DNA of 64,000 bases from the IMG/VR virus record IMGVR_UViG_3300045988_166055, positions 64,001 through 128,000 of that record, one strand, 5' to 3'. Positions within the stretch are counted from its first letter, which is position 1, and each line of letters starts with the position of its first letter. This document shows, one piece after another, positions 51,529 through 63,275 of the stretch. The DNA is from a virus. The notes below the pieces were generated by a model, which worked only from the letters and a program-made list of their open reading frames with translations, was not told the DNA's origin and searched no databases. Position numbers and translations under genes: made by a program.

Positions 51529-52772
51529 TGTTTAATAAGTATCCTGAATTACGAATTGCATATGAAAAAGAATGCAGACGACAGGAACAAAACATAGAGT
51601 TCATTGCTTCAGAAAATTTTGTAAGTATTGATATATTATCAGCCCTAGGAAGTGTATTTACAAACAAATATAGCGAAGGGTATCCAAAGTACAGAACTGA
51701 AGATAAGGGAAACAAAGGAAGATACTACGGAGGGTGTCAATACATTGACGAAGTAGAAGATTTCTGTATTGAGCAATGGAAGAAAGTATTTCATTTAGAT
51801 CATAAGATATCTGGATTGAATAAAACAAGTTATCATGTCAATGTTCAGCCTCATTCTGGTTCGCAAGCTAATATGGCTTCGTACATGAGTGTACTTAATC
51901 CTGGTGACACTATTCTGTCAATGAACCTAAACAACGGAGGGCATCTTACACACGGATCCTCTGTTAATTTCTCTGGAAAACTTTATAATGTTGTTTTCTA
52001 TGATGTAGATGAAAGAGGATACATTGATTATCTTGACATTGAAAAGAAGATAAAAGAGTTCAAACCTAAACTTGTTTTAGCAGGAGCAAGTGCCTATTCT
52101 AGAACAATTGATTTTGAAAGGATATATAACATAATAAATATATGTTCGACTCATGATTACAGGCCGTATTTCATGGTAGATATGAGTCATATAGCAGGAT
52201 TAGTTGCTACAGGTAACCATCCTTCTCCCTTTGGTTATGCAGATATTATAACTACCACAACACACAAGACATTAAGAGGGCCTAGAGGTGGTATAATATT
52301 TTGTGTAAATGACCTTGCAAAGAAAGTAGATAGTTCAGTATTTCCTGGTTGTCAAGGTGGTCCACTTCAGAATGTAATTCTTGCAAAGGCAGTATGCGCT
52401 TGTGAAGATTGCCAACCGGAATATTACAAATACATTGATAAAGTTGTTAGGAACGCAAATGCAATGGCCACCAGGTTCAAACAGCTTGGTTACGAAATAG
52501 TAACAGGTGGAACCGATAATCACATGTTCTTGATTGACTTGTCTAAAACTCATCCTAATTTATCCGGTAGAAATGTTCAGGAATATTTAGACAAATTTAA
52601 TATAACCGTTAATAAGAATTGTGTACCAAATGAAAAACGAGGTCCTCAGCAAGCTTCAGGAATACGGATTGGTACACCTGCAATGACAACTAAGGGCTGG
52701 TCAGAAACGGATTTCATAATTTGCGCTGAGAAGATTGACGAGCTAATTAAACAGCTAAATAAGAATCGTTAA
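51525..52772 (+). CDS. glyA: serine hydroxymethyltransferase
   Basis: IASENFVS, SEGYP..RYYGGC, VQPHSGSQAN, TTTTHKTLRGPRGG (PLP lysine motif). Confidence 0.9.
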   Translation: MMFNKYPELRIAYEKECRRQEQNIEFIASENFVSIDILSALGSVFTNKYSEGYPKYRTEDKGNKGRYYGGCQYIDEVEDFCIEQWKKVFHLDHKISGLNKTSYHVNVQPHSGSQANMASYMSVLNPGDTILSMNLNNGGHLTHGSSVNFSGKLYNVVFYDVDERGYIDYLDIEKKIKEFKPKLVLAGASAYSRTIDFERIYNIINICSTHDYRPYFMVDMSHIAGLVATGNHPSPFGYADIITTTTHKTLRGPRGGIIFCVNDLAKKVDSSVFPGCQGGPLQNVILAKAVCACEDCQPEYYKYIDKVVRNANAMATRFKQLGYEIVTGGTDNHMFLIDLSKTHPNLSGRNVQEYLDKFNITVNKNCVPNEKRGPQQASGIRIGTPAMTTKGWSETDFIICAEKIDELIKQLNKNR

Positions 52773-52784
52773 TAAGTATGTAGG
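52763..52784 (+). promoter_or_regulatory. class A box (overlaps the glyA stop)
   Basis: GAATCGTTAATAAGTATGTAGG. Confidence 0.5.
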
Positions 52785-52969
52785 CAGACAACATCTGCTT
52801 ACAACCAGAAGAGAAGGGTCGCTACCTTCGGGAAGTGCTATTTTTGGGACGAGCACTCAGGCAAGTTGGTGGGTAGCCTTGCCAGTTAAAACTCATTTGT
52901 ATCAAATCAGAAATGATTGTATTTTGACTTATCTAAAAGCTAAAGTTTTACGAACTAGAAAGAAGTTTG

Positions 52970-53179
52970 ATGATATTGAAGTCTGAGTCAAATAAATACT
53001 ACGATCAGATTGATAAAGCTATCAAGTCATATGAACAGTTTAGACCTTGTCATCCTATGGGTCCTGATAAAATATGTGACAAGATTGATTGGTGCTGGAA
53101 ATGGAGAAAAATTTCTGAAAATCAAATGCACAACCTGGTCGATAGAATAGTTTATCTTATGGACAATAACTTAGTTTGA
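52970..53179 (+). CDS. hypothetical protein (69 aa)
   Basis: ATG 52970; weak SD; Trp/Cys-rich (DWCWKWRK). Confidence 0.45.
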   Translation: MILKSESNKYYDQIDKAIKSYEQFRPCHPMGPDKICDKIDWCWKWRKISENQMHNLVDRIVYLMDNNLV

Positions 53180-53193
53180 TCTTATTTTAATAT

Positions 53194-53268
53194 TGGGGCG
53201 TAGCCAAGCGGAAAGGCAGTAGACTTTGACTCTATTATTCGCTGGTTCGAATCCAGCCGTCCCAGCCA
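53194..53268 (+). tRNA. tRNA-Gln (anticodon UUG)
   Basis: Acceptor TGGGGCG/CGTCCCA, loop CT-TTG-AC, T arm GCTGG-TTCGAAT-CCAGC, encoded G-CCA. Confidence 0.85.
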
Positions 53269-53469
53269 GTGGTCAATTAGCTATTGACTGATGTCAGAGT
53301 AATCAGCTAACCTGACAAAGAATGAAAATGATCGCTGAAAACTGCTACTAAAGGATTCGTCCTCATTATTCACCTTAAGATAGTGGCTAGTTATTTGTGG
53401 ATTACTAGTTGATGATGATTAGCGTGACAATCTAAGCGGTAAGCTGATGAATAGTTAGGAGGAACATAA

Positions 53470-53853
53470 ATGAAAATTCTTCGTCATCAAAACATAGAAG
53501 GAATGGCGAGAGTTGGATTTACTTCAGATAGCTACGAAGTATACGTCAATACAGACGATGGTGGAAAAATTCCTCACTTTCATTACAGACTGAAAAATGA
53601 TTGGAATAAGTTTCACACATGTATAAAAATTGAAAGTCCTGAATATTTTCATCATACAGGTAAAGAAAGCGTGTTGAATTCTAAACAAATTAGATCGCTC
53701 ATTCGATTTCTTAAGTCATCTGTATCTCTATCACAATATAGTGAAAAATTTTCTAACAACTTTGAATTGATTATTTTTCTATGGAACATAAACAATTCGG
53801 ATGTTATAGTTGATCCTGAAACAAAAATTCCTGATTACTATCAACTAAATTAA
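53470..53853 (+). CDS. hypothetical protein (127 aa)
   Basis: SD TAGGAGG; GGKIPHFHYRL motif. Confidence 0.6.
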   Translation: MKILRHQNIEGMARVGFTSDSYEVYVNTDDGGKIPHFHYRLKNDWNKFHTCIKIESPEYFHHTGKESVLNSKQIRSLIRFLKSSVSLSQYSEKFSNNFELIIFLWNINNSDVIVDPETKIPDYYQLN

Positions 53854-53855
53854 AT

Positions 53856-53877
53856 CCAATCGTTATTAAGTATGTAG
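53856..53877 (+). promoter_or_regulatory. class A box
   Basis: CCAATCGTTATTAAGTATGTAG. Confidence 0.5.
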
Positions 53878-54040
53878 CAGCTAGTAAGCTGTAACATAAG
53901 GAGCTCACAATCCTGCCGAAATATCTTCTAGAATATTTCCGCACAATATAGAAAAGAGTGGGTGGCAAGGAATATGCCAGGAATGATTCTAAGCTTGACA
54001 TGCAAGTACAACCGGGTGAGAAACTAGTCCCGGTAAATAT

Positions 54041-54115
54041 TGTCAATTAGTTTATGAGGTAAAACATTGTAGCTTAAGATACAATAAGTTGGTTCAATTC
54101 CAACATTGACAGCCA
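54041..54115 (+). tRNA. aberrant tRNA-like gene with an 8-nt anticodon loop (UAA or UUA)
   Basis: Perfect acceptor TGTCAAT/ATTGACA + G-CCA; D arm GTTT-ATGAGGTA-AAAC; T arm GTTGG-TTCAATT-CCAAC; anticodon stem TTGTA/TACAA closing GCTTAAGA; 3-nt variable region. Confidence 0.55.
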
Positions 54116-54234
54116 TCGGTCATTGTTGACTGACGCCCACCGAATCTGCTATCTTAGATCATCAGTAGCAGATGCAGTTTTCTAGTTCTCTTTTCTGTTC
54201 ATCGAACGTGTTGAAAATAAAGAGAATAATATAT

Positions 54235-54326
54235 GGCGCGATACCGAAGTGGTCATAACGGAGCGGTCTTGAAAACCGTAGGCGGTGATGAGCCGTCCGT
54301 GGGTTCGAATCCCACTCGCGCCGCCA
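54235..54326 (+). tRNA. tRNA-Ser (anticodon UGA), class II
   Basis: Acceptor GGCGCGA/TCGCGCC, loop CT-TGA-AA, long variable arm, T arm GTGGG-TTCGAAT-CCCAC, G-CCA. Confidence 0.85.
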
Positions 54327-54549
54327 TGCCTTTTCATTCAGCTGACATTAGATTGTCAAATTGATGAAAGTGAAACCAACTATGCTGGCAGGTTGTCGAC
54401 GGGTTGAAGAGCCGTAGAGTCTAAACTATTCTCCTCTATTCTAGAAAGAGTCGGAAAGCTAGGCCCCGTAGTAGCAGCCGAAAAGTATCCTAAAACGATA
54501 GGCGTTAAAAAATGTTTTATAGGTGACAGCCCGGAAAGACGGGCATTCT

Positions 54550-54645
54550 CATCTGCTAGAACAATGGTAGTTCAGATAAGTTTATGCTTATTCCGTGTCT
54601 GTTGGTCAATCAGACATTATCTCGGTTCGAATCCGAGGCAGGTGA
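54550..54645 (+). tRNA. atypical class-II-like tRNA look-alike 1 (UAU-type loop, no encoded CCA)
   Basis: Acceptor CATCTGC/GCAGGTG; D arm GAAC-AATGGTA-GTTC; hairpin ATAAG-TTTATG-CTTAT (6-nt loop); extra arm GTCTG-TTGGTCAAT-CAGAC; T arm CTCGG-TTCGAAT-CCGAG. Confidence 0.4.
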
Positions 54646-54649
54646 CAAA

Positions 54650-54977
54650 TGTCTACTGGTCACCATCTACATACGACAATCAAAACTGCATAGGAGATGG
54701 AATTGGCAACGGCAGCCATGATAAGTGAAGCGATGTTCGAGTCATCAACCTGATCCTGTTCGACTCAGGCAGGGCATGGTGCAAAACTTATCAAGAGGAA
54801 CTAAGTACCTGCCTCGCTTCGGATAGCAAAGAAGGCGTTAGTAGTAATCGAAAAACTACTCGCGGTTACAGGGAGGGAGCGGCGTTATAGGTAAACCTCC
54901 TGGGTGTTCTGCTATCGTGCACCTTAGAAAGGCGAAGCTTTTCAGTTAGGACTAATCCGGCCAGATAGCAAAAATAT
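54650..54977 (+). ncRNA. ORF-free, G+C-rich structured spacer (candidate stable RNA)
   Basis: No ORF in the track; several local hairpins; lies between the tRNA look-alike and tRNA-Gly. Confidence 0.3.
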
Positions 54978-55051
54978 GCGGATATAGTGTAACGGTAACA
55001 TGCGACTCTTCCAAAGTCGTGTTGCGGGTTCGAGTCCCGTTATCCGCTCCA
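54978..55051 (+). tRNA. tRNA-Gly (anticodon UCC)
   Basis: Acceptor GCGGATA/TATCCGC, loop CT-TCC-AA, T arm GCGGG-TTCGAGT-CCCGT, T-CCA. Confidence 0.85.
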
Positions 55052-55069
55052 TAGAAGGAGGTGACAAAT

Positions 55070-55405
55070 ATGTCTGTTTATAAATGCCCAGTTTGCGGAG
55101 GAAGAGGATTTGTTACTTGCGGATTCTATTCAAGTCAAACATACGATGGAAGCTCGGTAACTAATTACAATTCAACTGAAGTTTGTAGAAGCTGTAATGG
55201 TAGAGGAATTATATTTGATGAATTCTTAGGATCAACTTCAAATAGTATTCATAGATATTGCAGTAATTGTGAAATGAACGATGGTATGGTGTATCCATCG
55301 TATCCTCCTAAATACAGATGTACTTTATCAGGTAATTTCAATGAAGGAACGCATACATGTAATCTAGATGATATTTTGTCAAAGGAAAATAACCAATCTG
55401 AATAA
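55070..55405 (+). CDS. DnaJ-type CxxCxGxG zinc-finger protein
   Basis: ATG 55070 after GAAGGAGG (3 nt after the tRNA-Gly CCA); CPVCGGRG ... CRSCNGRG. Confidence 0.6.
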   Translation: MSVYKCPVCGGRGFVTCGFYSSQTYDGSSVTNYNSTEVCRSCNGRGIIFDEFLGSTSNSIHRYCSNCEMNDGMVYPSYPPKYRCTLSGNFNEGTHTCNLDDILSKENNQSE

Positions 55406-55449
55406 GTTGATAATCGGTAGGGCGCTGCGGTGTGCTTGACCGTGTTCTC

Positions 55450-55483
55450 CCGTCCGGGTGTTGGCGCATCCGGACGGCTTTTT
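55450..55483 (+). terminator. rho-independent terminator
   Basis: CCGTCCGG-12 nt-CCGGACGG then CTTTTT. Confidence 0.75.
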
Positions 55484-55518
55484 CTATCTAGTAAATTATT
55501 AACGAATGATTAAGACTA

Positions 55519-55553
55519 TTGACTTTTCATAAGAATCGTTATATAATATGTAC
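55519..55553 (+). promoter_or_regulatory. class A box with a canonical -35
   Basis: TTGACT (55519-55524), 17 nt spacer containing AAGAATCGTTA, then TATAAT (55542-55547). Confidence 0.65.
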
Positions 55554-55600
55554 ATAAGTCAGCCAACACATCAAAAAGCTTCAAAGCTAAGGAGGAAAAA

Positions 55601-55915
55601 ATGAACGGATACATTATCAAAGCTACATACCTCACAGGTCCGCATAAAGGAGCATCTTATTTCCTTCAAAAAGGCGGATATGTAACATCCGATCCCGATG
55701 ACCAGTGGTCAGATAACTGCTACAAGACAGAAAACATCTGCAAGTCAATTTGCATGAAGCTTGAAAGAAGCAACATGGCTGAAAACGTAGTAGAGAAAAG
55801 AACAAGAGAGTATAGATCTCAAAAAGGGTACAATGTATCCGATTTCATGATCTACGAATTGATGAAATATGAACCGTATTTTGTCAAAACTGTTCACAAT
55901 TCGGATGTTTTCTAA
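55601..55915 (+). CDS. hypothetical protein (104 aa)
   Basis: SD AAGGAGG. Confidence 0.6.
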   Translation: MNGYIIKATYLTGPHKGASYFLQKGGYVTSDPDDQWSDNCYKTENICKSICMKLERSNMAENVVEKRTREYRSQKGYNVSDFMIYELMKYEPYFVKTVHNSDVF

Positions 55916-55928
55916 GGAGGTATTCACA

Positions 55929-56201
55929 ATGATCATCAATTCTCGTTTAGAAGCAAGGAAGTCTGTTAAGGATAACTTCGAGCTCGCTTGTAAATTTCAA
56001 ATGACAGTCATCAATGTCTTTCATAAGGACTTGATTACAGGTGAAATTGTTCTCACTGATATGTTCAGCCACGATAGTATTCAAGCCGTTACATGGAGAG
56101 ACGATTACCTTGAATCGTTAAAGAAGCTAGAGGTACCTTACATTTGCTATGTGGGAGATCATTTCACAGAATCATCTGGCTACTTAGACTTTGAGGAGTG
56201 A
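55929..56201 (+). CDS. hypothetical protein (90 aa)
   Basis: ATG 55929 after AAGGAGG; the track start at 55869 is less likely. Confidence 0.55.
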   Translation: MIINSRLEARKSVKDNFELACKFQMTVINVFHKDLITGEIVLTDMFSHDSIQAVTWRDDYLESLKKLEVPYICYVGDHFTESSGYLDFEE

Positions 56202-56206
56202 CAATC

Positions 56207-56491
56207 ATGGATAGAAAAGTTTTTGAAGCTTTATCTTCTGCAAATAAATTGATCAACCATCAACTTGATTGTCAAAAGGCCGCTATTCCTGATATACAAA
56301 AAGCTATTGAAGAAACAGCGAAAGCTTTCAATATCACTTACAAACAAGGCCGCAGTGAAGGATTTGAATCCGAAACTATTGATGATATAGCAGAAATTTA
56401 CGGATATCTAATCGGAGCTAAAGGTGCAATTGAAGCGGTCATATCTAAGTTAGAAGGAGCAAAGAATATGATGTCTAATTTTGATAAATGA
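56207..56491 (+). CDS. hypothetical protein (94 aa)
   Basis: ATG 56207 after GAGGAG. Confidence 0.55.
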   Translation: MDRKVFEALSSANKLINHQLDCQKAAIPDIQKAIEETAKAFNITYKQGRSEGFESETIDDIAEIYGYLIGAKGAIEAVISKLEGAKNMMSNFDK

Positions 56492-56613
56492 ATGAATACA
56501 TGAAACGAATAATCAAGAAATCGGCTGTAATCGGGATGGCTAAAGAACCGTCAAGAGGTGTTTTTAGATCGTTGATGGAGAAGTCCTGTCATTTCCTTTT
56601 TACAATGACATAA
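56488..56613 (+). CDS. 41-aa ORF, probably the 5' part of a frameshifted gene
   Basis: ATGA coupling to the upstream stop; overlaps the open frame that continues into 56640-56894. Confidence 0.35.
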   Translation: MNEYMKRIIKKSAVIGMAKEPSRGVFRSLMEKSCHFLFTMT

Positions 56614-56894
56614 CTTCTCCCGGCGTTGCTAAATCCGGATTGACTTACAACCACAAAAATTTGTGGCCTGATGTTAAACCTAAAGGATGCAATAAACCGT
56701 ATAATTACTACCCTCGTGGACGAGTAGAGCTAGGAAAGAAAAATTCTATCATATATGTAAATCCTAACTTCGATAAATATGATTTAGCAGAAGTTAGAAA
56801 GGATTTTGGACTTATCAATGAGCCTAAAGTAGTATTTGATAATTCAGATCATTACAAATGTTATCTAGATGACGGATGGAAGCCAGATAAATAA
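56601..56894 (+). CDS. 3' part of the same gene (frame open from 56568; no SD or ATG of its own)
   Basis: The only in-frame start is TTG 56640, with no SD; a -1 shift on the T5 run 56597-56601 joins it to 56488-56613. Confidence 0.45.
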   Translation, partial: YNDITSPGVAKSGLTYNHKNLWPDVKPKGCNKPYNYYPRGRVELGKKNSIIYVNPNFDKYDLAEVRKDFGLINEPKVVFDNSDHYKCYLDDGWKPDK

Positions 56895-56915
56895 CAATCG
56901 TTATATAAAATGTAG
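56894..56915 (+). promoter_or_regulatory. class A box upstream of tRNA-Leu
   Basis: ACAATCGTTATATAAAATGTAG. Confidence 0.5.
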
Positions 56916-56926
56916 TAATCAAATTT

Positions 56927-57014
56927 GCTGGTGTGGTGGAACTGGTAAGACACTTTAGACTTAAAATCTAACGCATTAAGTTGTGTACGGGTTCGAATCC
57001 CGTCACCAGCACCA
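56927..57014 (+). tRNA. tRNA-Leu (anticodon UAA), class II
   Basis: Acceptor GCTGGTG/CACCAGC, stem TTAGA/TCTAA, loop CT-TAA-AA, long variable arm, T arm ACGGG-TTCGAAT-CCCGT, A-CCA. Confidence 0.85.
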
Positions 57015-58043
57015 TTGTCACAGTCATCTTGATTGTGTGGATTGAAATAAGGGCATACGGAGAAAGTGGTCGTATAAACGTTGTGGTGATCAAGCAATGC
57101 CTGAAGTATCAACGTGACAGATCGGAGAGACGATCAAAAGCGAGGTTCGATTCAGGAAGGTTACAAAATGTATTCCATTTAGAACCGGGTTACGCTGTCT
57201 AAGTGGTTGCCCCTGATGGTCCGGTACGATTCCGGAGGGAATGATTGCTAGAATCATTCCTAACGCTTAGACCTATCTTTTCTATATAGCTGGCCACTAT
57301 TCTGCCAATCGACGGATTGGATGAGGTTTCGACCATCAGATAAACGGCTGAAAATGTATAGGCGTTTACTGCTTAACGAAATGAAGCGGGCTGTTGTTCA
57401 TCTCAGGATAAAAAGATGGCGTGCCAGCCGACATTGTTAGCCTATTTCGGTAGGTATTCGGTTAGAATAAGGAATGCTACTTATTCGGGAGCTAAATTGA
57501 ATGTGCATCCTTCTGAAGTTGGAGTCTCGAAGATAACGGTTCTGAGAGATAGATGTTAAGTTAGTACTTAGCATTGAGGTTAAACTTGTCAGCTCCTAAA
57601 AGTTAATATCGAGCAAACTCACCATAAAGTGTTCTAGCTGCTAATCTAAAAGAGAATGAGATGATTAGAAGGATTGAGCGAATCTAGATGCTCGTTATTA
57701 TATTTGCCATCTGCTGGTCCTACACAGCAGTGAGGATGGTAGGACATCCAATAACCAAGCAATCGGTGGAGATAGCGCCGGACACCTCGCCTGTTGAGGA
57801 GGGAATTTGAACAAAAAGGTAAGATATGTTCACACCAGAACATAAGGGCATATGGAATGGTGAAAATACTTACTAAACCAATCTGCTAGGTTATCTGAGA
57901 GAATGTCAGGATTTGAGGCAGATAAGTGATAGAATGCAGTACTCTCATTTGACTTTGAGAAGAACCTTTCATATTATCACTTAATGAGTTCTATGCGTTG
58001 CAAACACTTCTCTCATTCGGGATAGAAAAGAAGGGTTAGACAT
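57015..58043 (+). ncRNA. large (about 1 kb) ORF-free, highly structured RNA candidate
   Basis: Abuts tRNA-Leu and tRNA-Glu; nested helices (57213-57221 with 57331-57339) around hairpins 57238-57260 and 57305-57320; H-type pseudoknot at 57711-57745. Confidence 0.4.
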
Positions 58044-58118
58044 GGCGCCTTGGTCAAGTGGTTAAGACACGGCCCTTTCACGGCTGTAACATGGGTTCGA
58101 GTCCCGTAGGCGTCACCA
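58044..58118 (+). tRNA. tRNA-Glu (anticodon UUC)
   Basis: Acceptor GGCGCCT/AGGCGTC, loop CT-TTC-AC, T arm ATGGG-TTCGAGT-CCCGT, A-CCA. Confidence 0.85.
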
Positions 58119-58209
58119 TCACATCCTATAGGATGTGTTAAGTGTGATATATGGTAACAGATTCCGACCTAAGCGCACGGGTCTTCTAGAGGCCTTCGGA
58201 ATCGAATAT

Positions 58210-58285
58210 CCGGGTGTAGCTCAGATGGTAGAGCGCGTGGTTTGGGACCACGATGCCGCTGGTTCGAATCCAGTCACTCGGACCA
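58210..58285 (+). tRNA. tRNA-Pro (anticodon UGG)
   Basis: Acceptor CCGGGTG/CACTCGG, stem CGTGG/CCACG, loop TT-TGG-GA, A-CCA. Confidence 0.85.
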
Positions 58286-58304
58286 TTTTTTCATTCAATT
58301 TTTA

Positions 58305-58326
58305 TTCATCGTTATATAACATGTAG
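58305..58326 (+). promoter_or_regulatory. class A box
   Basis: TTCATCGTTATATAACATGTAG. Confidence 0.45.
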
Positions 58327-58426
58327 GAGGCATCCATCTCGGATACAATACTACAACGTAGATAGAGAAAACATTTTCTCTGTAATGAGAGGTAAGATAC
58401 TCTTGAAGTCGCCTAAAAAAATAAAT

Positions 58427-58449
58427 TAGCATCGTTATATATCATGTAG
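58427..58449 (+). promoter_or_regulatory. class A box upstream of tRNA-Thr
   Basis: TAGCATCGTTATATATCATGTAG. Confidence 0.45.
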
Positions 58450-58459
58450 CATAAAATAT

Positions 58460-58535
58460 GCTGGATTAGCTCAGTTGGCAGAGCGCGTGATTTGTAATCT
58501 CGAGGTCAAGGGTTCGAGTCCCTTATCCAGCTCCA
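58460..58535 (+). tRNA. tRNA-Thr (anticodon UGU)
   Basis: Acceptor GCTGGAT/ATCCAGC, loop TT-TGT-AA, T arm AAGGG-TTCGAGT-CCCTT, T-CCA. Confidence 0.85.
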
Positions 58536-58627
58536 TTGCCACAATTTATTAGATTGTGTGGATTGAAACCATCTCATCTCCTTCCTGATCCAGTTTCTGG
58601 TCTGGATAAACAAAACCGGGTAAATAT

Positions 58628-58722
58628 CCTGCCTTAGCATAACGGTAGTGCAACCGGCCTATACCCGGCATAAGGCTCTAGATTGGGGCAAGATCTCGGT
58701 TCGAATCCGAGGGGCAGGACCA
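58628..58722 (+). tRNA. atypical class-II-like tRNA look-alike 2 (UAU-type loop)
   Basis: Acceptor CCTGCCT/GGGCAGG + A-CCA; D arm GCAT-AACGGTA-GTGC; hairpin CCGG-CCTATAC-CCGG; extra arm GCTC-TAGATTG-GGGC; T arm identical to look-alike 1. Confidence 0.45.
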
Positions 58723-58916
58723 TTAGCGCCCATACAAGCTTAAAAGTATGGTGAGGAATCAAGTTACTCAAGTTAGGTCAGCTTGACATCCAACAGTAAG
58801 GACCTACGACAGGTGAGAATGACGGATTAGTCCTTTCTTGAATAAACAGAACCTGACCCATTGGCGCCGAGGGTGAACGCTGCTTGAAGGTAAAGAAAGG
58901 CAATAAAACTTTACAT

Positions 58917-58993
58917 GGGAGCATAGCTCAGTTGGTTAGAGCGCATGACTGTTAATCATGATGTCGAAGGTTCAAGTCCTTCTGTTCCCGCCA
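58917..58993 (+). tRNA. tRNA-Asn (anticodon GUU)
   Basis: Acceptor GGGAGCA/TGTTCCC, stem CATGA/TCATG, loop CT-GTT-AA, G-CCA. Confidence 0.85.
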
Positions 58994-59540
58994 GCGCCTA
59001 TATCAGTCTAGGTCTTGAAAGGATATAGAGACCAATGAATTATCTTTTTAGAAAGGTGATTTATCTGATGAAAAGAGATCATCAACTCTCGGCGAATTAG
59101 AACTTGACGAATTTGTCTTTTGACAAAAAGAAGCAGCAGGTTCGTCTCTGCGCTTAATCTACTGAACTGCAATGTTGATGTAAGCGGTAATTAGGTTCCC
59201 AAACCAATTCAGGGAGATTAAGAAAAAGTTTGCTTATTTAGTAGAAAGAGGGTTGGAGGGGCACAGCAAGTAGAATAAAAGGACCTATCCAGAATGCCAG
59301 GATTGACACCATAAAATGCTGTCAATGAGAGCATCAGTATTAGACCACGGTGAAGCGATGTGATGATGATAGGAATTGGGACTATCTAATCTCATCTAAT
59401 GCCGATATACATCTGGTTGTGTAGGTAGGCAACAAATTTGAAAGCTATAACAGGATGTGCTAAGGAGTAGAAGTAATAACCTCTGTCTACTGTGTATTTC
59501 TGCTAAATAAGTTCAACTTTTTTATTAAGGGGTTTGAAAA
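58994..59540 (+). ncRNA. ORF-free structured spacer of about 550 nt (candidate stable RNA)
   Basis: No ORF in the track on either strand; starts at the tRNA-Asn 3' end. Confidence 0.3.
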
Positions 59541-59756
59541 ATGAAAACAATCACTTTTATCTGTTATGATAAATATCCAAAAACAACAAAAAGGTCTCAC
59601 ATTTTTAAGAAGCGTTTTTCTTCGTTAGCAGATGTTGCTAAATTCTTGAAAGTTTCAAATAAAATCTATTTGCAAAATCCGATGAACGAATTTTCAAAAG
59701 ACGAACTAAGAATTCTTTCAATGAAAGTTCGATCGTTAAATAAAATGAAGGTGTAG
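59541..59756 (+). CDS. doubtful small basic ORF (71 aa) running into tRNA-Lys
   Basis: SD-like AAGGGG; its last 10 nt overlap the tRNA-Lys 5' end. Confidence 0.3.
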   Translation: MKTITFICYDKYPKTTKRSHIFKKRFSSLADVAKFLKVSNKIYLQNPMNEFSKDELRILSMKVRSLNKMKV

Positions 59757-59822
59757 CTCAGTCGGTAGAGCACCTGCCTTTTAAGCAGGGTGTCGGGAGT
59801 TCGAATCTCCTCACCTTCACCA
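59747..59822 (+). tRNA. tRNA-Lys (anticodon UUU)
   Basis: Acceptor GAAGGTG/CACCTTC, stem CCTGC/GCAGG, loop CT-TTT-AA, A-CCA. Confidence 0.85.
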
Positions 59823-59828
59823 AAATAT

Positions 59829-59913
59829 GCACCTGTGGTGGAACTGGCAGACACGCTTGACTTAGGATCAAGTGCCTTCAGGTTTAAGGGTTCGAGTCCC
59901 TTCAGGTGCACCA
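59829..59913 (+). tRNA. tRNA-Leu (anticodon UAG), class II
   Basis: Acceptor GCACCTG/CAGGTGC, stem CTTGA/TCAAG, loop CT-TAG-GA, long variable arm, A-CCA. Confidence 0.85.
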
Positions 59914-59918
59914 TATAT

Positions 59919-59995
59919 GGAGGATTAGCTCAGCTGGTTAGAGCGCTTGCTTTACACGCAAGAAGTCGCAAGTTCGAATCTTGCATTCTCCACCA
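59919..59995 (+). tRNA. tRNA-Val (anticodon UAC)
   Basis: Acceptor GGAGGAT/ATTCTCC, stem CTTGC/GCAAG, loop TT-TAC-AC, A-CCA. Confidence 0.85.
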
Positions 59996-60001
59996 TTATT
60001 T

Positions 60002-60078
60002 GGCCAAGTAGTTCAGTTGGTTAGAACGCCAGCCTGTCACGCTGGAGGTCACGGGTTCGAACCCCGTCTTGGTCGCCA
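60002..60078 (+). tRNA. tRNA-Asp (anticodon GUC)
   Basis: Acceptor GGCCAAG/CTTGGTC, stem CCAGC/GCTGG, loop CT-GTC-AC, G-CCA. Confidence 0.85.
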
Positions 60079-60244
60079 TTGTTGGTTTTACTATTTTATC
60101 AATGTCAGAACGGGGCGAGTCCGTTCAAGTCGCTCAAATCGGGTTGGCCACCAGGAGAGTCAGATTAAAATGGGTTGAGGCGGAGAGTTGGAAAGCCTAG
60201 TAGCTACATTAGGCATGCATAGTGTAGCTACCTCAAAAAAATAA

Positions 60245-60319
60245 GGGTCCGTATTTCAATGGGAGAAAGCTTCCTTTGCACGGAAGAAGTTGCGTGTTCG
60301 AGTCACGTCGGATCCACCA
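60245..60319 (+). tRNA. tRNA-Ala (anticodon UGC)
   Basis: Acceptor GGGTCCG/CGGATCC with a G3:U70 pair, loop TT-TGC-AC, A-CCA. Confidence 0.85.
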
Positions 60320-60440
60320 TTTGAGACTTCAGACAAGTTGGTTAGAATGTCTGATTAAACGACATACAATGAGACGATACCAAGACTTTAGTTCGTTACA
60401 GAGCGGTGACTGAATGTCAAATCCCTTATGTCATTTATCT

Positions 60441-60517
60441 GGGCCTTTAGCTCAGTTGGTTAGAGCATCCGGCTCATAACCGGATCGTCCCGGGTTCGAA
60501 TCCCCGAAGGCCCACCA
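60441..60517 (+). tRNA. tRNA with CAU anticodon (elongator Met or Ile2)
   Basis: Acceptor GGGCCTT/AAGGCCC (G1:C72, so not an initiator), loop CT-CAT-AA, one T-stem mismatch, A-CCA. Confidence 0.75.
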
Positions 60518-60672
60518 TAATTGGTACAACACGACTGTAACGGCTCCCGCGGTTTAGAGTTGTATCCCGTTTCTTAGTTGAAGCGTGTAGTGTCAAGAGA
60601 GCCTACCAGACGAGCCATATGGGCACCACCTAGCGGTGAAAAGATATGTGGGACGATCGTCAATTATTATAT

Positions 60673-60749
60673 GCCTCAGTAGCTCAGTTGGATAGAGCAA
60701 CTTCCTTCTAAGCAGTAGGCCACAGGTTCAAGTCCTGTTTGAGGTGCCA
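60673..60749 (+). tRNA. tRNA-Arg (anticodon UCU)
   Basis: Acceptor GCCTCAG/TTGAGGT (two G:U pairs), loop CT-TCT-AA, T arm ACAGG-TTCAAGT-CCTGT, G-CCA. Confidence 0.75.
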
Positions 60750-60823
60750 GAAAGCACATTAAATAACGTGGAATAAAACTGGAGGTTGTGATGGGACGTT
60801 GAGCCTCCTTTACAAAACAATAA

Positions 60824-60892
60824 GATGCTTTACGCCAGTTGGTAGACGACTCTTGTACAGAGAAGACGCTGGTTCGAATACAGCAAGCATCA
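60824..60892 (+). pseudogene. degenerate tRNA-like element (GUA-type loop)
   Basis: Perfect acceptor GATGCTT/AAGCATC but a 3-bp anticodon stem (CTC-TTGTACA-GAG), mismatches in the D and T stems, no CCA. Confidence 0.35.
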
Positions 60893-61098
60893 AAAGCTGC
60901 TCTGATTGGGTCCGTGCTTGATACTAAGTTGCAGGAACATAAAGGCCTGCACGCTAATCTTCATCACCCAAAGAAGAAAAAGGACAGCAGTAAAAAATCT
61001 GTCAAAGATCAGATAAGACAGAAACTGCATCGAGCAAGTAGAGATAGCGCTGTCTTGAAAGCTCAAAAATATCCTATCTGCAGTAGGATATTAAATCT

Positions 61099-61124
61099 AG
61101 CCCTCCGTGACAACACGGAGGGCT
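61099..61124 (+). terminator. strong hairpin (terminator candidate, no U tract)
   Basis: AGCCCTCCGTG-ACAA-CACGGAGGGCT (11 bp). Confidence 0.5.
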
Positions 61125-61130
61125 TCACTA

Positions 61131-61150
61131 TGAATCGTTATAGTACATAT
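61131..61150 (+). promoter_or_regulatory. class A box
   Basis: TGAATCGTTATAGTACATAT. Confidence 0.5.
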
Positions 61151-61173
61151 ATCGATACAGGAGTGATATCAAT

Positions 61174-61353
61174 ATGGATCAAAAGGAATCAACTATTCAG
61201 AATAACATAAGGACACAATCAAAACTCATACAAGACTACATAGAAAAAGTAAGACAGCAAAAGAAAGAAATTGAAATGCTTCAATCCGAAATAGATAGGC
61301 TTACCTTTATCATTCAAGACTATCAATGTATGATGATTGTTAATAAGAGGTGA
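61174..61353 (+). CDS. small coiled-coil protein (59 aa; below the track cutoff)
   Basis: ATG after CAGGAG; MDQKESTIQNN...EIEMLQSEIDRLTFIIQDYQCMMIVNKR; TGA lies 5 nt before the ligase ATG. Confidence 0.5.
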   Translation: MDQKESTIQNNIRTQSKLIQDYIEKVRQQKKEIEMLQSEIDRLTFIIQDYQCMMIVNKR

Positions 61354-61358
61354 AATAA

Positions 61359-63275
61359 ATGAGTTTCAATGCACTTGAAAAGAAAATAAAGGAGAATGCG
61401 CAGAAATACTATACAGATGGGTCTCAGTCAATGACAGACTCAGAATTTGATTCTGCAGTAAGCGAACTTAAAAAGTCAAAACCCAATTCAGAATTATTTA
61501 CAACAGGTTGGGGATATGATCCAAATGAAAACAATTCCGGAAAGAAGTTCAAACATAGATACGGACTAGTTGGATCATTAGATAAAGTTCATAATTGGGA
61601 CGAACTGCAGAAAGATCTTAGAGACAGAGAAATAATTGCATCATTGAAGCTTGATGGACTAAGCGTAGTTCTATATTATGTTGACGGCAAACTTGATCAA
61701 GCTCTTACTCGCGGCGACGGAAAAATTGGAATTGACATCACTGACAAGGTCTTGTTCATCAATTCTAGACTGAAGCAAATTGATAAGACATTTACAGGAG
61801 GCGTTAGAGGAGAAATCTTGATGTCCTTCCCCGCGTTTGAAAACTATGCTAAAGATCATGAAGACGCGAAGAATCCTAGAAATACTACTGCGGGTCTTAT
61901 AAATGCAAAAGAAATTTCAACAGATCTAAGACTTCTAGACATTGTTTTCTACAAAGTAGTTGGATGTAATGAAGACAGATTCGATGACTATGTTGATATG
62001 CTGAACTACATTGAATCTCAGTTCTATCCTTATGTTGTAGATTATGAGAATGTTTCTCTAATGGAGAACGCAATCATGTACAGAATGAATGATCTAAGAT
62101 CAGTATGGTATGGCCACTACCCTGCAGATGGAATTGTGCTTGCAAGAAATGATCTAGGTAGACTTACTACAAATGAAACTGGAAATATGAATAGCGATGA
62201 AACAAACGAAACAATCTATACATTTGTTTCACAAGCATTCAAATTTCCTGCTGAAACAAAGGAAGCAAAAGTAGAATGTGTTGAATGGTCTTTGAGTAAA
62301 ACAAAATACCTCATTCCAAAAGTGAAGATTGAACCTACTCAGCTTTCAGGAACAACTGTTCAGTATACGGCAGGATTCAATGCTGATTACATTATGAATA
62401 GCAAGATAGGTCCAGGAGCGGTAGTTGAAATATGCAAGTCAGGAGAAATAATCCCTGATATTCAAAGTGTTGTCAAAACTTCCGATGAAGTTAAGATGCC
62501 TACAATTTGCCCTTTCTGCGGAGAATATCTTGAATGGAAAGGTGTACACCTATTCTGCCCTAACAATGATTGCAGACATTTTAAGATGACTGATTTGCTT
62601 ATTTGGTGTTCAAAACTTGTTCCAATTGATGGACTTGGAGATAAAATAAGAGAAAAATTCTTCACAGAAATTTATGGAGAAGAATACTGCACTGTCGATC
62701 AAATAATGAAATATCCTGTATTGACCCGTGCAAAGGTACCTGACATTGACAAAGGAAAGCAATATCAACTATTTAGAGATTCTATACTAGCGCTTTTCAG
62801 AAATAAATTTAACATCGTTACTGTTCTTGAAGCTCTTAATATTCCAAGACTTGGACATGAAACAGCAAAGAAACTGTCTAAGTATCCAGATTTTATCAAG
62901 AAACTTGCAAACAATGATGAAAATACCTTCATAAACCTTCATTCATTCATTGGAAATGCAAACGCAGATTCTATCAATGAGCATAGAGAAAAGTTCATGC
63001 GTATCAATTTCCTGTTAGATAGAGATGGAATTGATTGGAATGTGACAGAATCTTCTAATATAAGAGTTGCAATAACAGGTAAACTATCATGTAAGCGAGC
63101 GGATTTTGAGAAAGAGCTTGAATCAATTGGAATCTCAGTTGGTTCAATAAATAATGAAACAAAATACTTGATTACTGATGACCCTAATAGTTCTTCAGAA
63201 AAGAATAGAAAGGCAGACAAATTAGGAATTAAAAAGATAACAGAGGCAGAATTTAGAAAAATTTTCAGAATTTAA
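61359..63275 (+). CDS. ligA: NAD-dependent DNA ligase
   Basis: Adenylation motif SLKLDGLS, Zn finger CPFCG...CPNNDC, HhH region, C-terminal BRCT-like domain. Confidence 0.9.
   Translation: MSFNALEKKIKENAQKYYTDGSQSMTDSEFDSAVSELKKSKPNSELFTTGWGYDPNENNSGKKFKHRYGLVGSLDKVHNWDELQKDLRDREIIASLKLDGLSVVLYYVDGKLDQALTRGDGKIGIDITDKVLFINSRLKQIDKTFTGGVRGEILMSFPAFENYAKDHEDAKNPRNTTAGLINAKEISTDLRLLDIVFYKVVGCNEDRFDDYVDMLNYIESQFYPYVVDYENVSLMENAIMYRMNDLRSVWYGHYPADGIVLARNDLGRLTTNETGNMNSDETNETIYTFVSQAFKFPAETKEAKVECVEWSLSKTKYLIPKVKIEPTQLSGTTVQYTAGFNADYIMNSKIGPGAVVEICKSGEIIPDIQSVVKTSDEVKMPTICPFCGEYLEWKGVHLFCPNNDCRHFKMTDLLIWCSKLVPIDGLGDKIREKFFTEIYGEEYCTVDQIMKYPVLTRAKVPDIDKGKQYQLFRDSILALFRNKFNIVTVLEALNIPRLGHETAKKLSKYPDFIKKLANNDENTFINLHSFIGNANADSINEHREKFMRINFLLDRDGIDWNVTESSNIRVAITGKLSCKRADFEKELESIGISVGSINNETKYLITDDPNSSSEKNRKADKLGIKKITEAEFRKIFRI

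What the first reader, a model, noticed from the sequence alone, without database searches (positions are those of the whole stretch)
57015..58043. About 1 kb of ORF-free, densely structured RNA between tRNA-Leu and tRNA-Glu: a candidate giant phage ncRNA
This stretch starts at the nucleotide after the tRNA-Leu CCA and ends at the 5' end of tRNA-Glu. It has no credible ORF on either strand. It is visibly richer in G+C than the flanking genes, and TAA, TAG and TGA are scattered through it. It folds by eye into nested elements. CTGATGGTC (57213-57221) pairs with GACCATCAG (57331-57339). That helix encloses a 9-bp hairpin (57238-57260), a 6-bp hairpin (57305-57320) and a CCGG/CCGG hairpin. Further on there is a clean H-type pseudoknot: stem CTGCTG/CAGCAG (57711-57716 with 57725-57730), whose loop GTCCTAC (57717-57723) pairs with GTAGGAC (57739-57745). 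Very large ornate RNAs such as GOLLD and ROOL are known to occur in phages and prophages next to tRNA genes, so this is the right context for a member or a new class. A CGTTAT box at 57692-57697 could also split the region into two transcripts.
Basis: partly seen in the sequence, partly recalled or inferred. Interest (0 to 1): 0.85.

Follow-up and report, generated by a model that had tools for sequence, protein, structure and literature searches.

The report
Two structured phage RNAs between tRNAs
The ORF-free kilobase between tRNA-Leu and tRNA-Glu is not one new giant RNA: it holds an unusually large member of a known but uncharacterised phage RNA family (Rfam RAGATH-36, shown here to be much larger than its Rfam model), a short invariant linker, and a second, rare structured RNA module.

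Summary
The observation largely holds. Window 57015-58043 has no credible ORF, even with one stop codon read through. It is richer in G+C than the coding flanks, and most of the named hairpins are real. It is, however, composite.

- 57015-57137 is a poorly conserved spacer.
- 57138-57597 (U1) is a full-length, expanded member of a widespread gut/rumen phage RNA family. The middle of that family is Rfam RAGATH-36. The window scores 44.7 bits, below the gathering score of 70. Two covariance models built only from distant members (seven loci checked reached Rfam's gathering score) each hit the window once (49.7 and 32.3 bits).
- The family is typically about 315 nt (209-485) with about 17 helices and strong covariation. 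Its 3'-terminal helix often ends exactly at the first base of a tRNA.
- 57598-57694 (U2) is a linker that is invariant in the clade.
- 57695-58041 (U3) is a separate module. It occurs alone in a different phage (L139). Five of its helices show compensatory changes. Two adjacent hairpins carry perfectly complementary 7-nt loops, so this is a kissing-loop arrangement and not an H-type pseudoknot.

There is no match to GOLLD, ROOL, introns, RNase P, tmRNA or 6S. The function is unknown. The best-supported model is stable ncRNAs co-transcribed with the tRNAs and cut out by tRNA-processing enzymes.

The parts
56898..56915 (+). Phage promoter-like motif TCGTTATATAAaATGTAG, 29 nt before tRNA-Leu. It is the likely start of the transcription unit tRNA-Leu / U1-U2-U3 / tRNA-Glu / tRNA-Pro.
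   Evidence: Three exact copies of TCGTTATATAA lie at 55536, 56898 and 58309, with near copies at 58432 and 59733. All are on the + strand and are followed by nATGTA. Promoter function is inferred.
56927..57014 (+). tRNA-Leu (anticodon taa), the upstream boundary of the region.
   Evidence: ARAGORN; Rfam tRNA 59.5 bits.
57015..57137 (+). Spacer that is poorly conserved. It is not part of the RNA family.
   Evidence: BLAST finds it only in L140 (97% identity). Other clade members have a different spacer here. Folding z-score -1.7.
57138..57597 (+). U1: a full-length, expanded member of the RAGATH-36 RNA family (about 460 nt).
   Evidence: Rfam RF03104 matches 57217-57390 at 44.7 bits, E 1.5e-7. 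Model R2 (5' domain, built from distant members) matches 57138-57289 at 49.7 bits, E 9e-10, over model positions 1-128. Model R1 (3' domain) matches 57462-57597 at 32.3 bits, E 3.8e-6, over model positions 1-132. Each gives a single significant hit in 64 kb, on the + strand only.
57138..57151 (+). 5' element AAGCGAGGTTCGAT. AAGCG pairs with CGCTT at 57264-57268 (helix Pa). GGTTCGA is T-loop-like.
   Evidence: GCGAGGTT lies within 140 nt upstream of the core in 77 of 99 distinct loci, although the retrieval pattern did not require it. Pa is 100% paired in A4.
57152..57216 (+). Helix P0 (TCAGG...CCTGA), with a 58-nt insertion where most family members have a tetraloop.
   Evidence: R2 alignment. 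P0 has 3 of 3 pairs with changes on both sides in A4.
57217..57236 (+). Invariant UGG followed by helix P1: a 5-bp stem with the 7-nt loop UACGAUU, the same dimensions as a tRNA T-arm.
   Evidence: P1 has 3 of 5 pairs with changes on both sides and is 100% paired. The loop sequence was part of the retrieval pattern, so its invariance is circular.
57238..57268 (+).
   Evidence: A G-C to A-U compensatory change occurs in L021.
57305..57320 (+). Hairpin CCAATC-GACG-GATTGG, lying inside the clade-specific expansion of P3.
   Evidence: A-U to U-A exchange between the two clade haplotypes (columns 105/114).
57465..57486 (+). Helix P6 (GAAUAAG / CUUAUUC) with the conserved loop GAAUGCUA.
   Evidence: R1 alignment. 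Across 53 distinct family sequences, 7 of 7 pairs have changes on both sides and 98% of cells are paired.
57487..57492 (+). 5' strand of the terminal helix Pc (GGGAGC). It pairs with GCUCCU at 57592-57597.
   Evidence: Family-wide, 4 of 4 pairs have changes on both sides and 100% of cells are paired. Observed pairings include UGGG/CCCA, CGGG/CCCG, GGAG/CUCC, CGAU/AUCG, UGUG/CACA and GACG/CGUC.
57503..57520 (+). Conserved block GTGCATCCTT and the 5' strand of P8 (CUGAAGUU). P8 pairs with AACUUGUCAG at 57583-57592.
   Evidence: GTGCAYCC is present in 72 of 108 distinct loci. In A4, P8 has 4 pairs with changes on both sides.
57578..57597 (+). 3' block GAGGTTAAAC, the 3' strand of P8, and the Pc tail GCUCCU. 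This is the 3' end of the family RNA.
   Evidence: In 15 of 53 distinct family members a same-strand tRNA starts -1 to +2 nt after this point.
57598..57694 (+). U2: a linker that is invariant in the clade. It contains a weak terminator-like hairpin and a promoter-like TTGAGC-16-TATTAT.
   Evidence: 100% identical in 15 loci and 97-99% in 3 more; absent from all other loci. Consensus scans are at chance frequency, so its role is not established.
57695..58041 (+). U3: a second structured RNA module of about 347 nt, separable from U1.
   Evidence: It is present alone in L139:3451-3792 at about 97% identity, with sharp boundaries, in a different tRNA order and not abutting a tRNA. In 12 distinct sequences, 8 pairs have changes on both sides, against 0-1 in slid controls.
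57708..57733 (+). U3 hairpin H1. The stem includes CUGCUG/CAGCAG. The loop carries GUCCUAC (57717-57723).
   Evidence: U-A to A-U and G-C to A-U double changes occur in 5 of 12 sequences. The MFE of this segment is the two-hairpin fold, at -18.3 kcal/mol.
57734..57749 (+). U3 hairpin H2 (GGAU/AUCC). Its loop carries GUAGGAC (57739-57745), complementary to the H1 loop.
   Evidence: A-U to U-A exchange in 5 of 12 sequences. The loop-loop pairs are invariant apart from one U-A to U-G change. The loop duplex is -9.4 kcal/mol.
57754..57767 (+). U3 hairpin H3 (ACC...GGU).
   Evidence: All 3 pairs have changes on both sides: ACC/GGU, GUC/GAC and ACU/AGU.
57942..57962 (+). U3 hairpin CUCUC...GAGAG.
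   Evidence: C-G to A-U compensatory change in L034.
58044..58118 (+). tRNA-Glu (anticodon ttc). Its 5' end (the RNase P site) lies 2 nt after the end of U3.
   Evidence: The junction is identical in all clade members.

Best explanation
The 1029-nt gap is a composite non-coding segment of one phage tRNA transcription unit. That unit runs from a promoter-like motif at 56898 through tRNA-Leu, the gap, tRNA-Glu and tRNA-Pro.

The gap has four parts:
- a dispensable spacer (57015-57137);
- U1 (57138-57597), the largest member recovered here of the RAGATH-36 RNA family;
- U2 (57598-57694), a clade-specific invariant linker;
- U3 (57695-58041), an independent structured RNA module.

**U1 and its family.** The family RNA is a multi-helix fold, typically about 315 nt (209-485). 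A 5' four-way junction (Pa, P0, P1, P2) carries a hairpin with T-arm dimensions and a second T-loop-like pentamer. A 3' domain (P6, P8-P10) is closed by a terminal helix, Pc. In 28% of distinct members Pc ends one nucleotide before position +1 of a tRNA.

**How it most likely works.** The steps below are inferred; the anatomy above is shown.
- The RNAs are made by read-through of the tRNA operon.
- They are released as stable, folded species by the host tRNA-processing enzymes. RNase P defines the 3' end.
- They then act in trans as ncRNAs during infection.

The tRNA-like elbow elements of U1 make tRNA-binding machinery, or tRNAs themselves, the most plausible partners. The two complementary hairpin loops of U3 are too closely tethered (3-nt linker) to kiss within one molecule.
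For: **Non-coding.** (stop codons in all frames); the 40-aa ORF differs at 10 of 40 residues between haplotypes, and the changes are those that preserve helices.

**U1 membership.**
- Rfam hit.
- Models R2 and R1 were built only from distant loci. Seven of these loci were scanned and are bona fide RAGATH-36 at 73-135 bits.
- The models hit 57138-57289 and 57462-57597 end to end.

**Family structure.**
- 74 pairs in 17 helices; 93.9% of cells paired against 41-49% in slid controls.
- 30 pairs with changes on both sides against 4-16 in slid controls; 0 of 500 shuffles reach this.
- 3' domain over 53 distinct sequences: 94.6% paired against 42-59%, and Pc has 4 of 4 pairs with changes on both sides.
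- The 3' domain is found in 71 of 100 metagenome loci retrieved by the 5' core alone.

**tRNA linkage.** Every tRNA lying near a family core is on the same strand as the RNA. In 15 of 53 distinct members a tRNA starts within -1 to +2 nt of the RNA's 3' end.

**Modularity.**
- U1 homology in distant loci stops at 57597.
- U3 occurs alone in L139.
- The spacer is not conserved.

**U3 structure.**

**Transcription unit.** Promoter-like motifs are. One search found only one weak terminator-like hairpin inside the gap (57675-57694), at chance frequency.
Against: - There are no expression data, so the ends, stability and processing are all inferred.
- The window copy fails Rfam's gathering score (44.7 against 70).
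- U3 and U2 are known from about 12 near-identical sequences (93% mean column identity). Most predicted U3 helices never vary, so only five helices are actually tested.
- Mosaic haplotypes show recombination, so many 'cells' are not independent events.
- Alignment A8 was fitted to the model, which biases the pair counts towards the structure.
- The core motifs are invariant by construction of the search pattern.
- U1, U2 and U3 are always contiguous in this clade with no clear processing site between them. They could therefore function as one RNA.
- The proposed tRNA-elbow mimicry and U3 multimerisation rest on sequence resemblance and steric reasoning only.
Confidence: 0.6

Rival explanations
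1. This is one giant RNA, essentially the first reader's view. U1, U2 and U3 (57138-58041, about 0.9 kb) are a single functional ornate RNA in this phage clade. It would have been built by fusing a RAGATH-36-type domain to a second domain, be released only at the flanking tRNAs, and possibly multimerise through the U3 loops.
For: - The three parts are contiguous and collinear in all 12 or more clade contigs, and always end 2 nt before tRNA-Glu.
- U2 is invariant.
- No convincing terminator or tRNA-like processing signal lies between the parts.
- RNAalifold proposes long-range U1-U3 pairing, GUCCGGU with GCCGGAC.
Against: - U1 ends at the same structural point (the Pc tail) as in more than 50 relatives, where a tRNA or an ORF follows directly.
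- U3 occurs without U1 or U2 in L139, with sharp boundaries.
- The proposed U1-U3 helix would destroy P1, which covaries family-wide. Its U3 strand is conserved in L139, where no partner exists.
Confidence: 0.2
2. Only U1 is an RNA gene. U2 and U3 would be transcribed spacer or regulatory DNA, for example a promoter or leader for tRNA-Glu, or a remnant of a mobile insertion. Their conservation would reflect recent horizontal spread rather than selection on RNA structure.
For: - Distribution is very narrow: 10 IMG/VR contigs from one sample, 3 metagenome contigs, and only 2 protein clusters for the spurious reverse ORF.
- Identity is 93-100%, so most helices are untested.
- Promoter-like sites lie at 57674-57701 and 57949-57977.
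- A discrete unit with sharp ends found in two unrelated contexts suggests mobility.
Against: - The few substitutions cluster in helices as double compensatory changes: 8 pairs against 0-1 in slid controls, and 32 cells against a shuffle mean of 12.
- In L139 a 5-nt deletion removes only a hairpin tip.
- In L139, U3 is not next to a tRNA, so it is not simply a tRNA-Glu leader.
- No terminal repeats or target duplications were seen at its ends.
- Promoter-like hits are at chance frequency: 24 found, 23.6 expected.
Confidence: 0.15
3. The region encodes one or more small proteins. One candidate is the 40-aa ORF at 57688-57810, which has a hydrophobic N-terminus. Another possibility is a gene read with a reassigned stop codon.
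For: The 40-aa ORF stays open in all haplotypes and in L139. A non-canonical tRNA (54041-54115) exists in the array.
Against: - All three stop codons occur 4-10 times in every frame. Read-through of any single stop gives at most 138 codons.
- 10 of 40 residues differ between haplotypes with almost no synonymous change, and the differences are the helix-compensating ones.
- The ATG and its upstream sequence are not conserved in L139.
- AGGA lies about 15 nt upstream of the ATG, which is poor spacing for a ribosome-binding site.
- ORFs downstream of family members in other loci have no similarity to this region.
Confidence: 0.03

Closest known systems
RAGATH-36 RNA (Rfam RF03104; a candidate structured RNA from comparative genomics by the Weinberg/Breaker groups, with no assigned function; the origin is from my own knowledge, as the paper's supplement was not readable)
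   Same: - The blocks UGG, P1 (GGUACGAUUCC), P2 and UAACGCUUAG match.
- P3 and the GNRA-capped hairpin match at 57217-57390.
- The context is phage, on contigs that also carry RAGATH-4, RAGATH-16 and Pistol.
- Homology to bona fide members is shown by two independent covariance models.
   Different: - The window scores below the gathering threshold (44.7 against 70 bits) because of large insertions: 55 nt where the model has 20, plus a 58-nt expansion of P0.
- The natural RNA is much larger than the 128-position Rfam model. It has a 5' extension of about 32 nt (AAGCGAGGUUCGA plus P0, forming helix Pa) and a 3' domain of about 130-190 nt (P5-P10, Pc).
- That 3' domain is present in 71 of 100 loci.
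ROOL and GOLLD large ornate RNAs (Rfam RF03087, RF01998)
   Same: They are large, multi-helix, function-unknown RNAs found in phages and prophages, often next to tRNA genes (PMC5737381). They form homo-oligomers (PMC12286853, abstract). The complementary loops of U3 could in principle mediate intermolecular contacts as well.
   Different: There is no sequence or structure match, even at E<=10. U1 (460 nt) and U3 (347 nt) are separate modules and are smaller. Oligomerisation here is only a steric inference.
   Same: Two loops within one RNA are complementary to each other but positioned so that pairing is intermolecular, which drives ring or dimer formation.
   Different: There is no homology and no link to the packaging motor. 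The loops here are 7 nt rather than 4. Nothing was tested experimentally.
tRNA T-arm and T-loop motifs, including the double T-loop modules of RNase P, T-box leaders and the ribosomal L1 stalk that dock the tRNA elbow (from my own knowledge)
   Same: - P1 has a 5-bp stem and a 7-nt loop UACGAUU closed by G-C, matching T-arm dimensions and U54/C56/R57/A58.
- A second UUCGA pentamer lies in the 5' junction.
- An invariant UGG precedes P1.
- The location is inside tRNA arrays.
   Different: ARAGORN and the Rfam tRNA model do not call it. The order of arms differs from that of a tRNA. No 3D evidence exists. There is no Rfam match to RNase P, T-box or tmRNA.

Membership tests
RAGATH-36 (RF03104) | Score at or above the Rfam gathering threshold (70 bits). 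| tested here: not met
   44.7 bits, E 1.5e-7, over model positions 1-128 at 57217-57390. It is absent from the gathering-threshold scan.
RAGATH-36 (RF03104) | Conserved core: UGG, hairpin with loop UACGAUU, second hairpin, UAACGCUUAG. | tested here: met
   57217-57270 match every conserved consensus position. The same core was used to retrieve 127 loci.
RAGATH-36 (RF03104) | Homology to bona fide members beyond the core, in both flanking domains. | tested here: met
   Models built from distant loci only; the seven of these loci scanned score 73-135 bits with Rfam. They hit the window once each: R2 49.7 bits, E 9e-10, and R1 32.3 bits, E 3.8e-6.
RAGATH-36 (RF03104) | Helices maintained by covariation. 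| tested here: met
   Family alignments A4 and A8. Within the window clade, compensatory changes occur in P2, P3 sub-helices, the GAAA-capped hairpin, P6 and others (22 covarying pairs).
GOLLD (RF01998) / ROOL (RF03087) | Match to the family covariance model. | tested here: not met
   No hit at gathering threshold or at E<=10 on 57000-58060 or 52500-61500.
GOLLD / ROOL | A single conserved RNA of about 600-800 nt inherited as a unit. | tested here: not met
   U1 and U3 occur independently of each other, and the spacer is not conserved.
GOLLD / ROOL | Homo-oligomeric assembly. | not testable with these tools
   Only the complementary U3 loops hint at intermolecular pairing.
Group I/II introns, RNase P RNA, tmRNA, 6S RNA | Match to the Rfam models; for tmRNA, an ARAGORN call. 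| tested here: not met
   No hits at E<=10. ARAGORN finds no tmRNA.
   The partner GUAGGAC is the loop of a second hairpin, whose stem shows a compensatory A-U to U-A exchange. The two-hairpin fold is the MFE, at -18.3 kcal/mol against -9.4 for the long-hairpin alternative.
tRNA / tRNA-like structure | Cloverleaf recognised by tRNA detectors. | tested here: not met
   ARAGORN and Rfam tRNA give no call in 57015-58043. Only a T-arm-sized hairpin and a four-way junction are present.

The most novel reading that the evidence does not exclude
U1-U2-U3 is processed only at the flanking tRNAs and acts as one composite RNA of about 0.9 kb. Its RAGATH-36-type domain uses a double T-loop, tRNA-elbow-like module to engage tRNAs or tRNA-handling machinery, for example by shielding or titrating factors that target the phage's tRNA supply. 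This would be a new ornate, self-assembling phage RNA built by fusing modules.
Probability: 0.1. Interest if true: 0.8.

Novelty: new variant of a known kind. Interest (0 to 1): 0.5.

Why it matters
RAGATH-36 sits in Rfam as a 128-nt motif of unknown function. This locus, together with the roughly 130 related loci gathered here, shows three things:

- The natural RNA is a multi-helix molecule, mostly about 300-460 nt (209-485 recovered).
- It is common in gut and rumen phages, probably of Firmicutes.
- It is embedded in tRNA arrays, and in 28% of distinct members its 3' terminal helix ends precisely at a tRNA 5' end.

These points give concrete, testable handles on a widespread orphan phage RNA: RNase P-defined ends, a T-arm-like hairpin, and a strongly covarying closing helix. 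They also suggest the Rfam model should be extended.

The window also carries a second, rare structured module with self-complementary loops. That module is a candidate for RNA-RNA assembly. Neither finding amounts to a new giant RNA class, and the function remains open.

Tried and rejected
- **Rfam.** Gathering-threshold and E<=10 scans gave only the sub-threshold RAGATH-36 hit. There was no GOLLD, ROOL, intron, RNase P, tmRNA or 6S.
- **GenBank phages.** blastn in 'distant' mode with the whole region matched only the flanking tRNAs.
- **Stop-codon reassignment.** Rejected.
- **Decayed copy of a downstream ORF.** Some family members have an ORF of about 200 aa downstream. tblastn found no similarity to the 3' part of the region, and those ORFs are heterogeneous.
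- **Consistent upstream gene partner for the family.** Not found; the upstream genes are diverse.
- **More U3 homologues.** Two exact-pattern scans of IMG/VR found the same 10 contigs. nhmmer over all 141 loci and a protein-space search with the spurious reverse ORF (2 clusters) showed that U3 is confined to this clade plus L139.
- **Structure used in R1.** R1's RNAalifold structure contains a small hairpin (CUUUG/UAGAG) that competes with helix P8. P8 has the better covariation, so I prefer it.
- **Long-range U1-U3 helix.** This RNAalifold prediction was rejected because it destroys P1.
- **Literature.** No paper in the held library names RAGATH-36. The supplement of the 2017 motif paper was not available. 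A 2023 catalogue of 10,006 viral candidate RNAs could contain U3 or the U1 3' domain, but its sequences could not be compared here.
Full report
**Setting**

The window is part of an uncultured tailed phage. All large ORFs are on the + strand. PHROG hits include baseplate, endolysin, helicases, SbcC-like nuclease, methyltransferase and NAD-ligase. The helicase's nearest GenBank relatives are Clostridium, Bacillus and Streptococcus phages at 33-37% identity.

Positions 53194-60892 form an array of 17-18 tRNA genes, all on the + strand. The finding is the gap between tRNA-Leu(taa) 56927-57014 and tRNA-Glu(ttc) 58044-58118.

**Checking the observation**

- The gap is ORF-free. Every frame on both strands holds 17-24 stop codons of all three kinds. 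Reading through any one stop type opens at most 138 codons.
- G+C is 0.40-0.45, against 0.33-0.38 in coding flanks.
The CGTTAT box is at 57693-57698, one base off.
- Single-sequence folding is only modestly better than shuffles: U1 z -2.1, U3 z -2.0, spacer z -1.7. The case for structure therefore rests on comparison with related sequences.

**Known families**

At gathering thresholds Rfam finds only tRNAs. At E<=10 the only other match in the gap is RAGATH-36 (RF03104) at 57217-57390. It scores 44.7 bits (gathering 70), E 1.5e-7, over model positions 1-128. The conserved blocks UGG, CGGUACGAUUCCG and CCUAACGCUUAG match perfectly, and there is a 55-nt insertion where the model has 20. GOLLD, ROOL, group I/II introns, RNase P, tmRNA and 6S do not match.

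**Relatives**

I scanned public collections with a pattern made of the two core blocks. It returned 15 IMG/VR loci, 104 metagenome loci including human-gut assemblies, and 8 MAG contigs. The MAGs include Oscillospiraceae, Clostridiales, Herbinix, Acutalibacteraceae and Saccharibacteria.

A close clade of about 12 distinct contigs aligns with window 57214-58043 at 84-97% identity. In every one the alignment ends at tRNA-Glu. Variation within this clade is mosaic: two haplotypes per block, recombined between blocks.

All other loci share only the 5' part of the region. nhmmer and alignment show that homology stops at the block GAGGTTAAAC plus a short tail, which is window 57597.

**The family is larger than the Rfam model**

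- *5' extension.* Upstream of the Rfam start, 77 of 99 distinct loci carry AAGCGAGGTTCGA followed by a hairpin (P0). This element was not part of the search pattern. AAGCG pairs with the CGCTT of UAACGCUUAG (helix Pa), which closes a four-way junction of Pa, P0, P1 and P2.
- *3' domain.* Downstream of the Rfam end lies a further domain. It comprises P5; P6 with loop GAAAUGCUG; GUGGG; a variable hairpin; AAAGUGCAUCCUU; P8-P10; GAGGUUAAAC; and the tail CCCAY.
- *Length.* The 64 distinct full-length sequences recovered span 209-485 nt, typically about 315. The window copy and its twin in L140 are the longest.
- *Covariation in a 16-sequence alignment (A4).* None of these sequences is from the window clade, and seven of the loci scanned are Rfam-bona-fide at 73-135 bits. 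A 74-pair, 17-helix structure is 93.9% paired, against 41-49% when partners are slid. It has 30 pairs with changes on both sides against 4-16 in slid controls, and 0 of 500 shuffles reach this.

**Testing the window against the family**

- Model R1 covers the 3' domain and was built from those distant sequences. It hits the window exactly once, at 57462-57597, with 32.3 bits, E 3.8e-6, end to end.
- Model R2 covers the 5' domain, including the new 5' extension. It hits 57138-57289 with 49.7 bits, E 9e-10, end to end, with a 58-nt insertion in P0.
- R1 also finds the 3' domain in 71 of 100 metagenome loci that had been retrieved by the 5' core alone.
- On those 53 distinct 3' domains, P6 has 7 of 7 pairs with changes on both sides. 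The terminal helix Pc has 4 of 4, with 100% of cells paired. Observed Pc pairings are UGGG/CCCA, CGGG/CCCG, GGAG/CUCC, CGAU/AUCG, UGUG/CACA, AGGG/CCCU and GACG/CGUC. One caveat applies: this alignment was fitted to the model.

U1 is therefore 57138-57597, and it is an expanded member of this family.

**Link to tRNAs**

Every tRNA lying near a family core is on the same strand as the RNA. The distance from the RNA's 3' end to the next tRNA is bimodal. In 15 of 53 distinct members the tRNA (Glu, Gln, Met, Lys or Ser) starts -1 to +2 nt after the model's last position. In the remainder it is more than 100 nt away or absent.

In those 15 members the RNase P site of the tRNA is the 3' end of the RNA, one nucleotide after helix Pc. 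Several relatives have the arrangement family RNA followed directly by tRNA-Glu (L048, L060, L064, L116). The window clade has U2 and U3 inserted between the two.

**U2 and U3**

U2 (57598-57694) is 97-100% identical in all clade members and is absent elsewhere. Its helices never vary, so they cannot be tested.

U3 (57695-58041) is a separable unit. Two exact-pattern scans found a contig from a different phage, L139, which has 23 tRNAs in another order. L139 carries only U3 (L139:3451-3792, about 97% identity). Homology starts at ATTATATTTGCC and stops at GGGTTAGAC. The flanks are unrelated, and the nearest downstream tRNA is 278 nt away.

In 12 distinct U3 sequences, 8 pairs have changes on both sides, against 0-1 in slid controls. 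These fall in five helices:
- H1: CUGCUG/CAGCAG changing to CUGCAA/UUGCAG.
- H2: GGAU/AUCC changing to GGUU/AACC.
- H3: ACC/GGU, GUC/GAC and ACU/AGU.
- One pair of an internal hairpin.
- CUCUC/GAGAG changing to CUCUA/UAGAG in L034.

The remaining roughly 90 predicted pairs are invariant and say nothing for or against the structure.

The loops of H1 and H2 (GUCCUAC and GUAGGAC) are perfectly complementary. They are invariant apart from one U-A to U-G change. The two-hairpin fold is the MFE at -18.3 kcal/mol, against -9.4 for the alternative long hairpin. With only a 3-nt linker, a coaxial kissing complex within one molecule is sterically implausible. This last point is my inference from helix geometry. 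Intermolecular pairing or a conformational switch is more likely.

**Coding alternatives**

A 40-aa ORF (57688-57810) stays open in every haplotype. However, it differs at 10 of 40 residues between haplotypes, through exactly the helix-compensating substitutions. Its start codon is not conserved in L139.

**Transcription**

An 18-nt motif, TCGTTATATAAnATGTAg, occurs at 55536, 56898 (29 nt before tRNA-Leu), 58309 and 58432 (28 nt before tRNA-Thr). All copies are on the + strand. It is probably the phage's promoter. The gap would then lie inside the unit tRNA-Leu ... tRNA-Glu-tRNA-Pro.

The sequence at the U2/U3 boundary (TCGTTATTATA) resembles only the first half of this motif. Generic sigma-70 and terminator scans are at chance level. 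An internal U3 promoter is therefore possible but not shown.

**Verdict**

The one-giant-RNA and GOLLD/ROOL readings are not supported. Roughly half of the region is an expanded member of an Rfam motif family. That family's true size, 5' and 3' domains and tRNA-abutting 3' end are described here. A third of the region is a rare second module. The remainder is spacer and linker.

The function of all the parts is unknown. The proposed mechanism is co-transcription with the tRNAs, release by tRNA-processing enzymes, trans-acting folded RNAs with tRNA-like elbow elements, and possible U3 self-association. All of this is inference.

Noticed in passing
window 54728-54865 (within the ORF-free spacer 54327-54977 between tRNA-Ser and tRNA-Gly): My 5'-domain model R2 gives a weak second hit here (13.1 bits, E 0.27). 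The sequence reads AAGCGATGTTCG ... CCTG-TTCGACT-CAGG (a T-arm-sized hairpin) ... CGCTT. The hairpin shows a CCTG/CAGG to CTTG/CAAG compensatory change in L139. The 650-nt spacer has 45% G+C and is 87-97% conserved in the clade. It may be a divergent paralogue of the RAGATH-36-type 5' domain.
   Followed up: partly
window 54560-54650: A T-arm (CTCGGTTCGAATCCGAG) with an acceptor-like 3' strand lies where relatives (L021, L023) have a tRNA-Met(cat). ARAGORN and Rfam call nothing here in the window. It is either a decayed tRNA or a non-canonical one.
   Followed up: partly
window 54041-54115: ARAGORN reports 'tRNA-?(Stop|Leu)(ta)': 75 nt with an odd anticodon loop (GCTTAAGA). Rfam tRNA scores 44.2 bits. 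It is conserved in all clade members and in L139. Its decoding identity is unclear.
   Followed up: partly
window 55536, 56898, 58309, 58432 (variants at 59733, 61135, 27433): An 18-nt + strand motif, TCGTTATATAAnATGTAg, recurs. It lies 28-29 nt upstream of tRNA-Leu and tRNA-Thr and ahead of a small-ORF block. It is probably a phage-specific promoter.
   Followed up: partly
window 58994-59746: Another ORF-poor 750-nt spacer lies between tRNA-Asn and tRNA-Lys. It is 90-95% conserved across the clade and L139. No Rfam match.
   Followed up: no
L003:10265-10310 (-), L013:2330-2379 (+), and equivalent positions in other clade-B contigs: The spacer between the upstream tRNA and U1 holds a miniature copy of the family's 3' block (GAAAGTGCATCCTTACGGTGGAGG..GGTTAACCGT). 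This suggests past tandem copies or recombination between copies. L002, L094 and L132 carry two cores within 0.4-1 kb.
   Followed up: no
L005:4350-4483, L048:4809-4880, L002:3230-3300, L064:173-243, L012:5521-5590: Contigs carrying the family RNA also carry RAGATH-4, RAGATH-16 and a Pistol ribozyme, all above Rfam gathering scores.
   Followed up: no
window 60824-60892: Rfam calls a tRNA here (35 bits) that ARAGORN misses. Relatives have tRNA-Tyr or tRNA-Cys at the equivalent position.
   Followed up: no
L005, L007, L015, L025 and others (family loci): In one subfamily an upstream ORF ending ...GFGGVYLIIGxxWFTLKRGSMP* reads about 20 nt into the RNA's 5' element and stops in the P0 tetraloop. 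Only 8-10 nt after the RNA's 3' tail, a Shine-Dalgarno sequence and a small ORF of about 190 aa follow. The RNA is tightly packed between genes there.
   Followed up: partly
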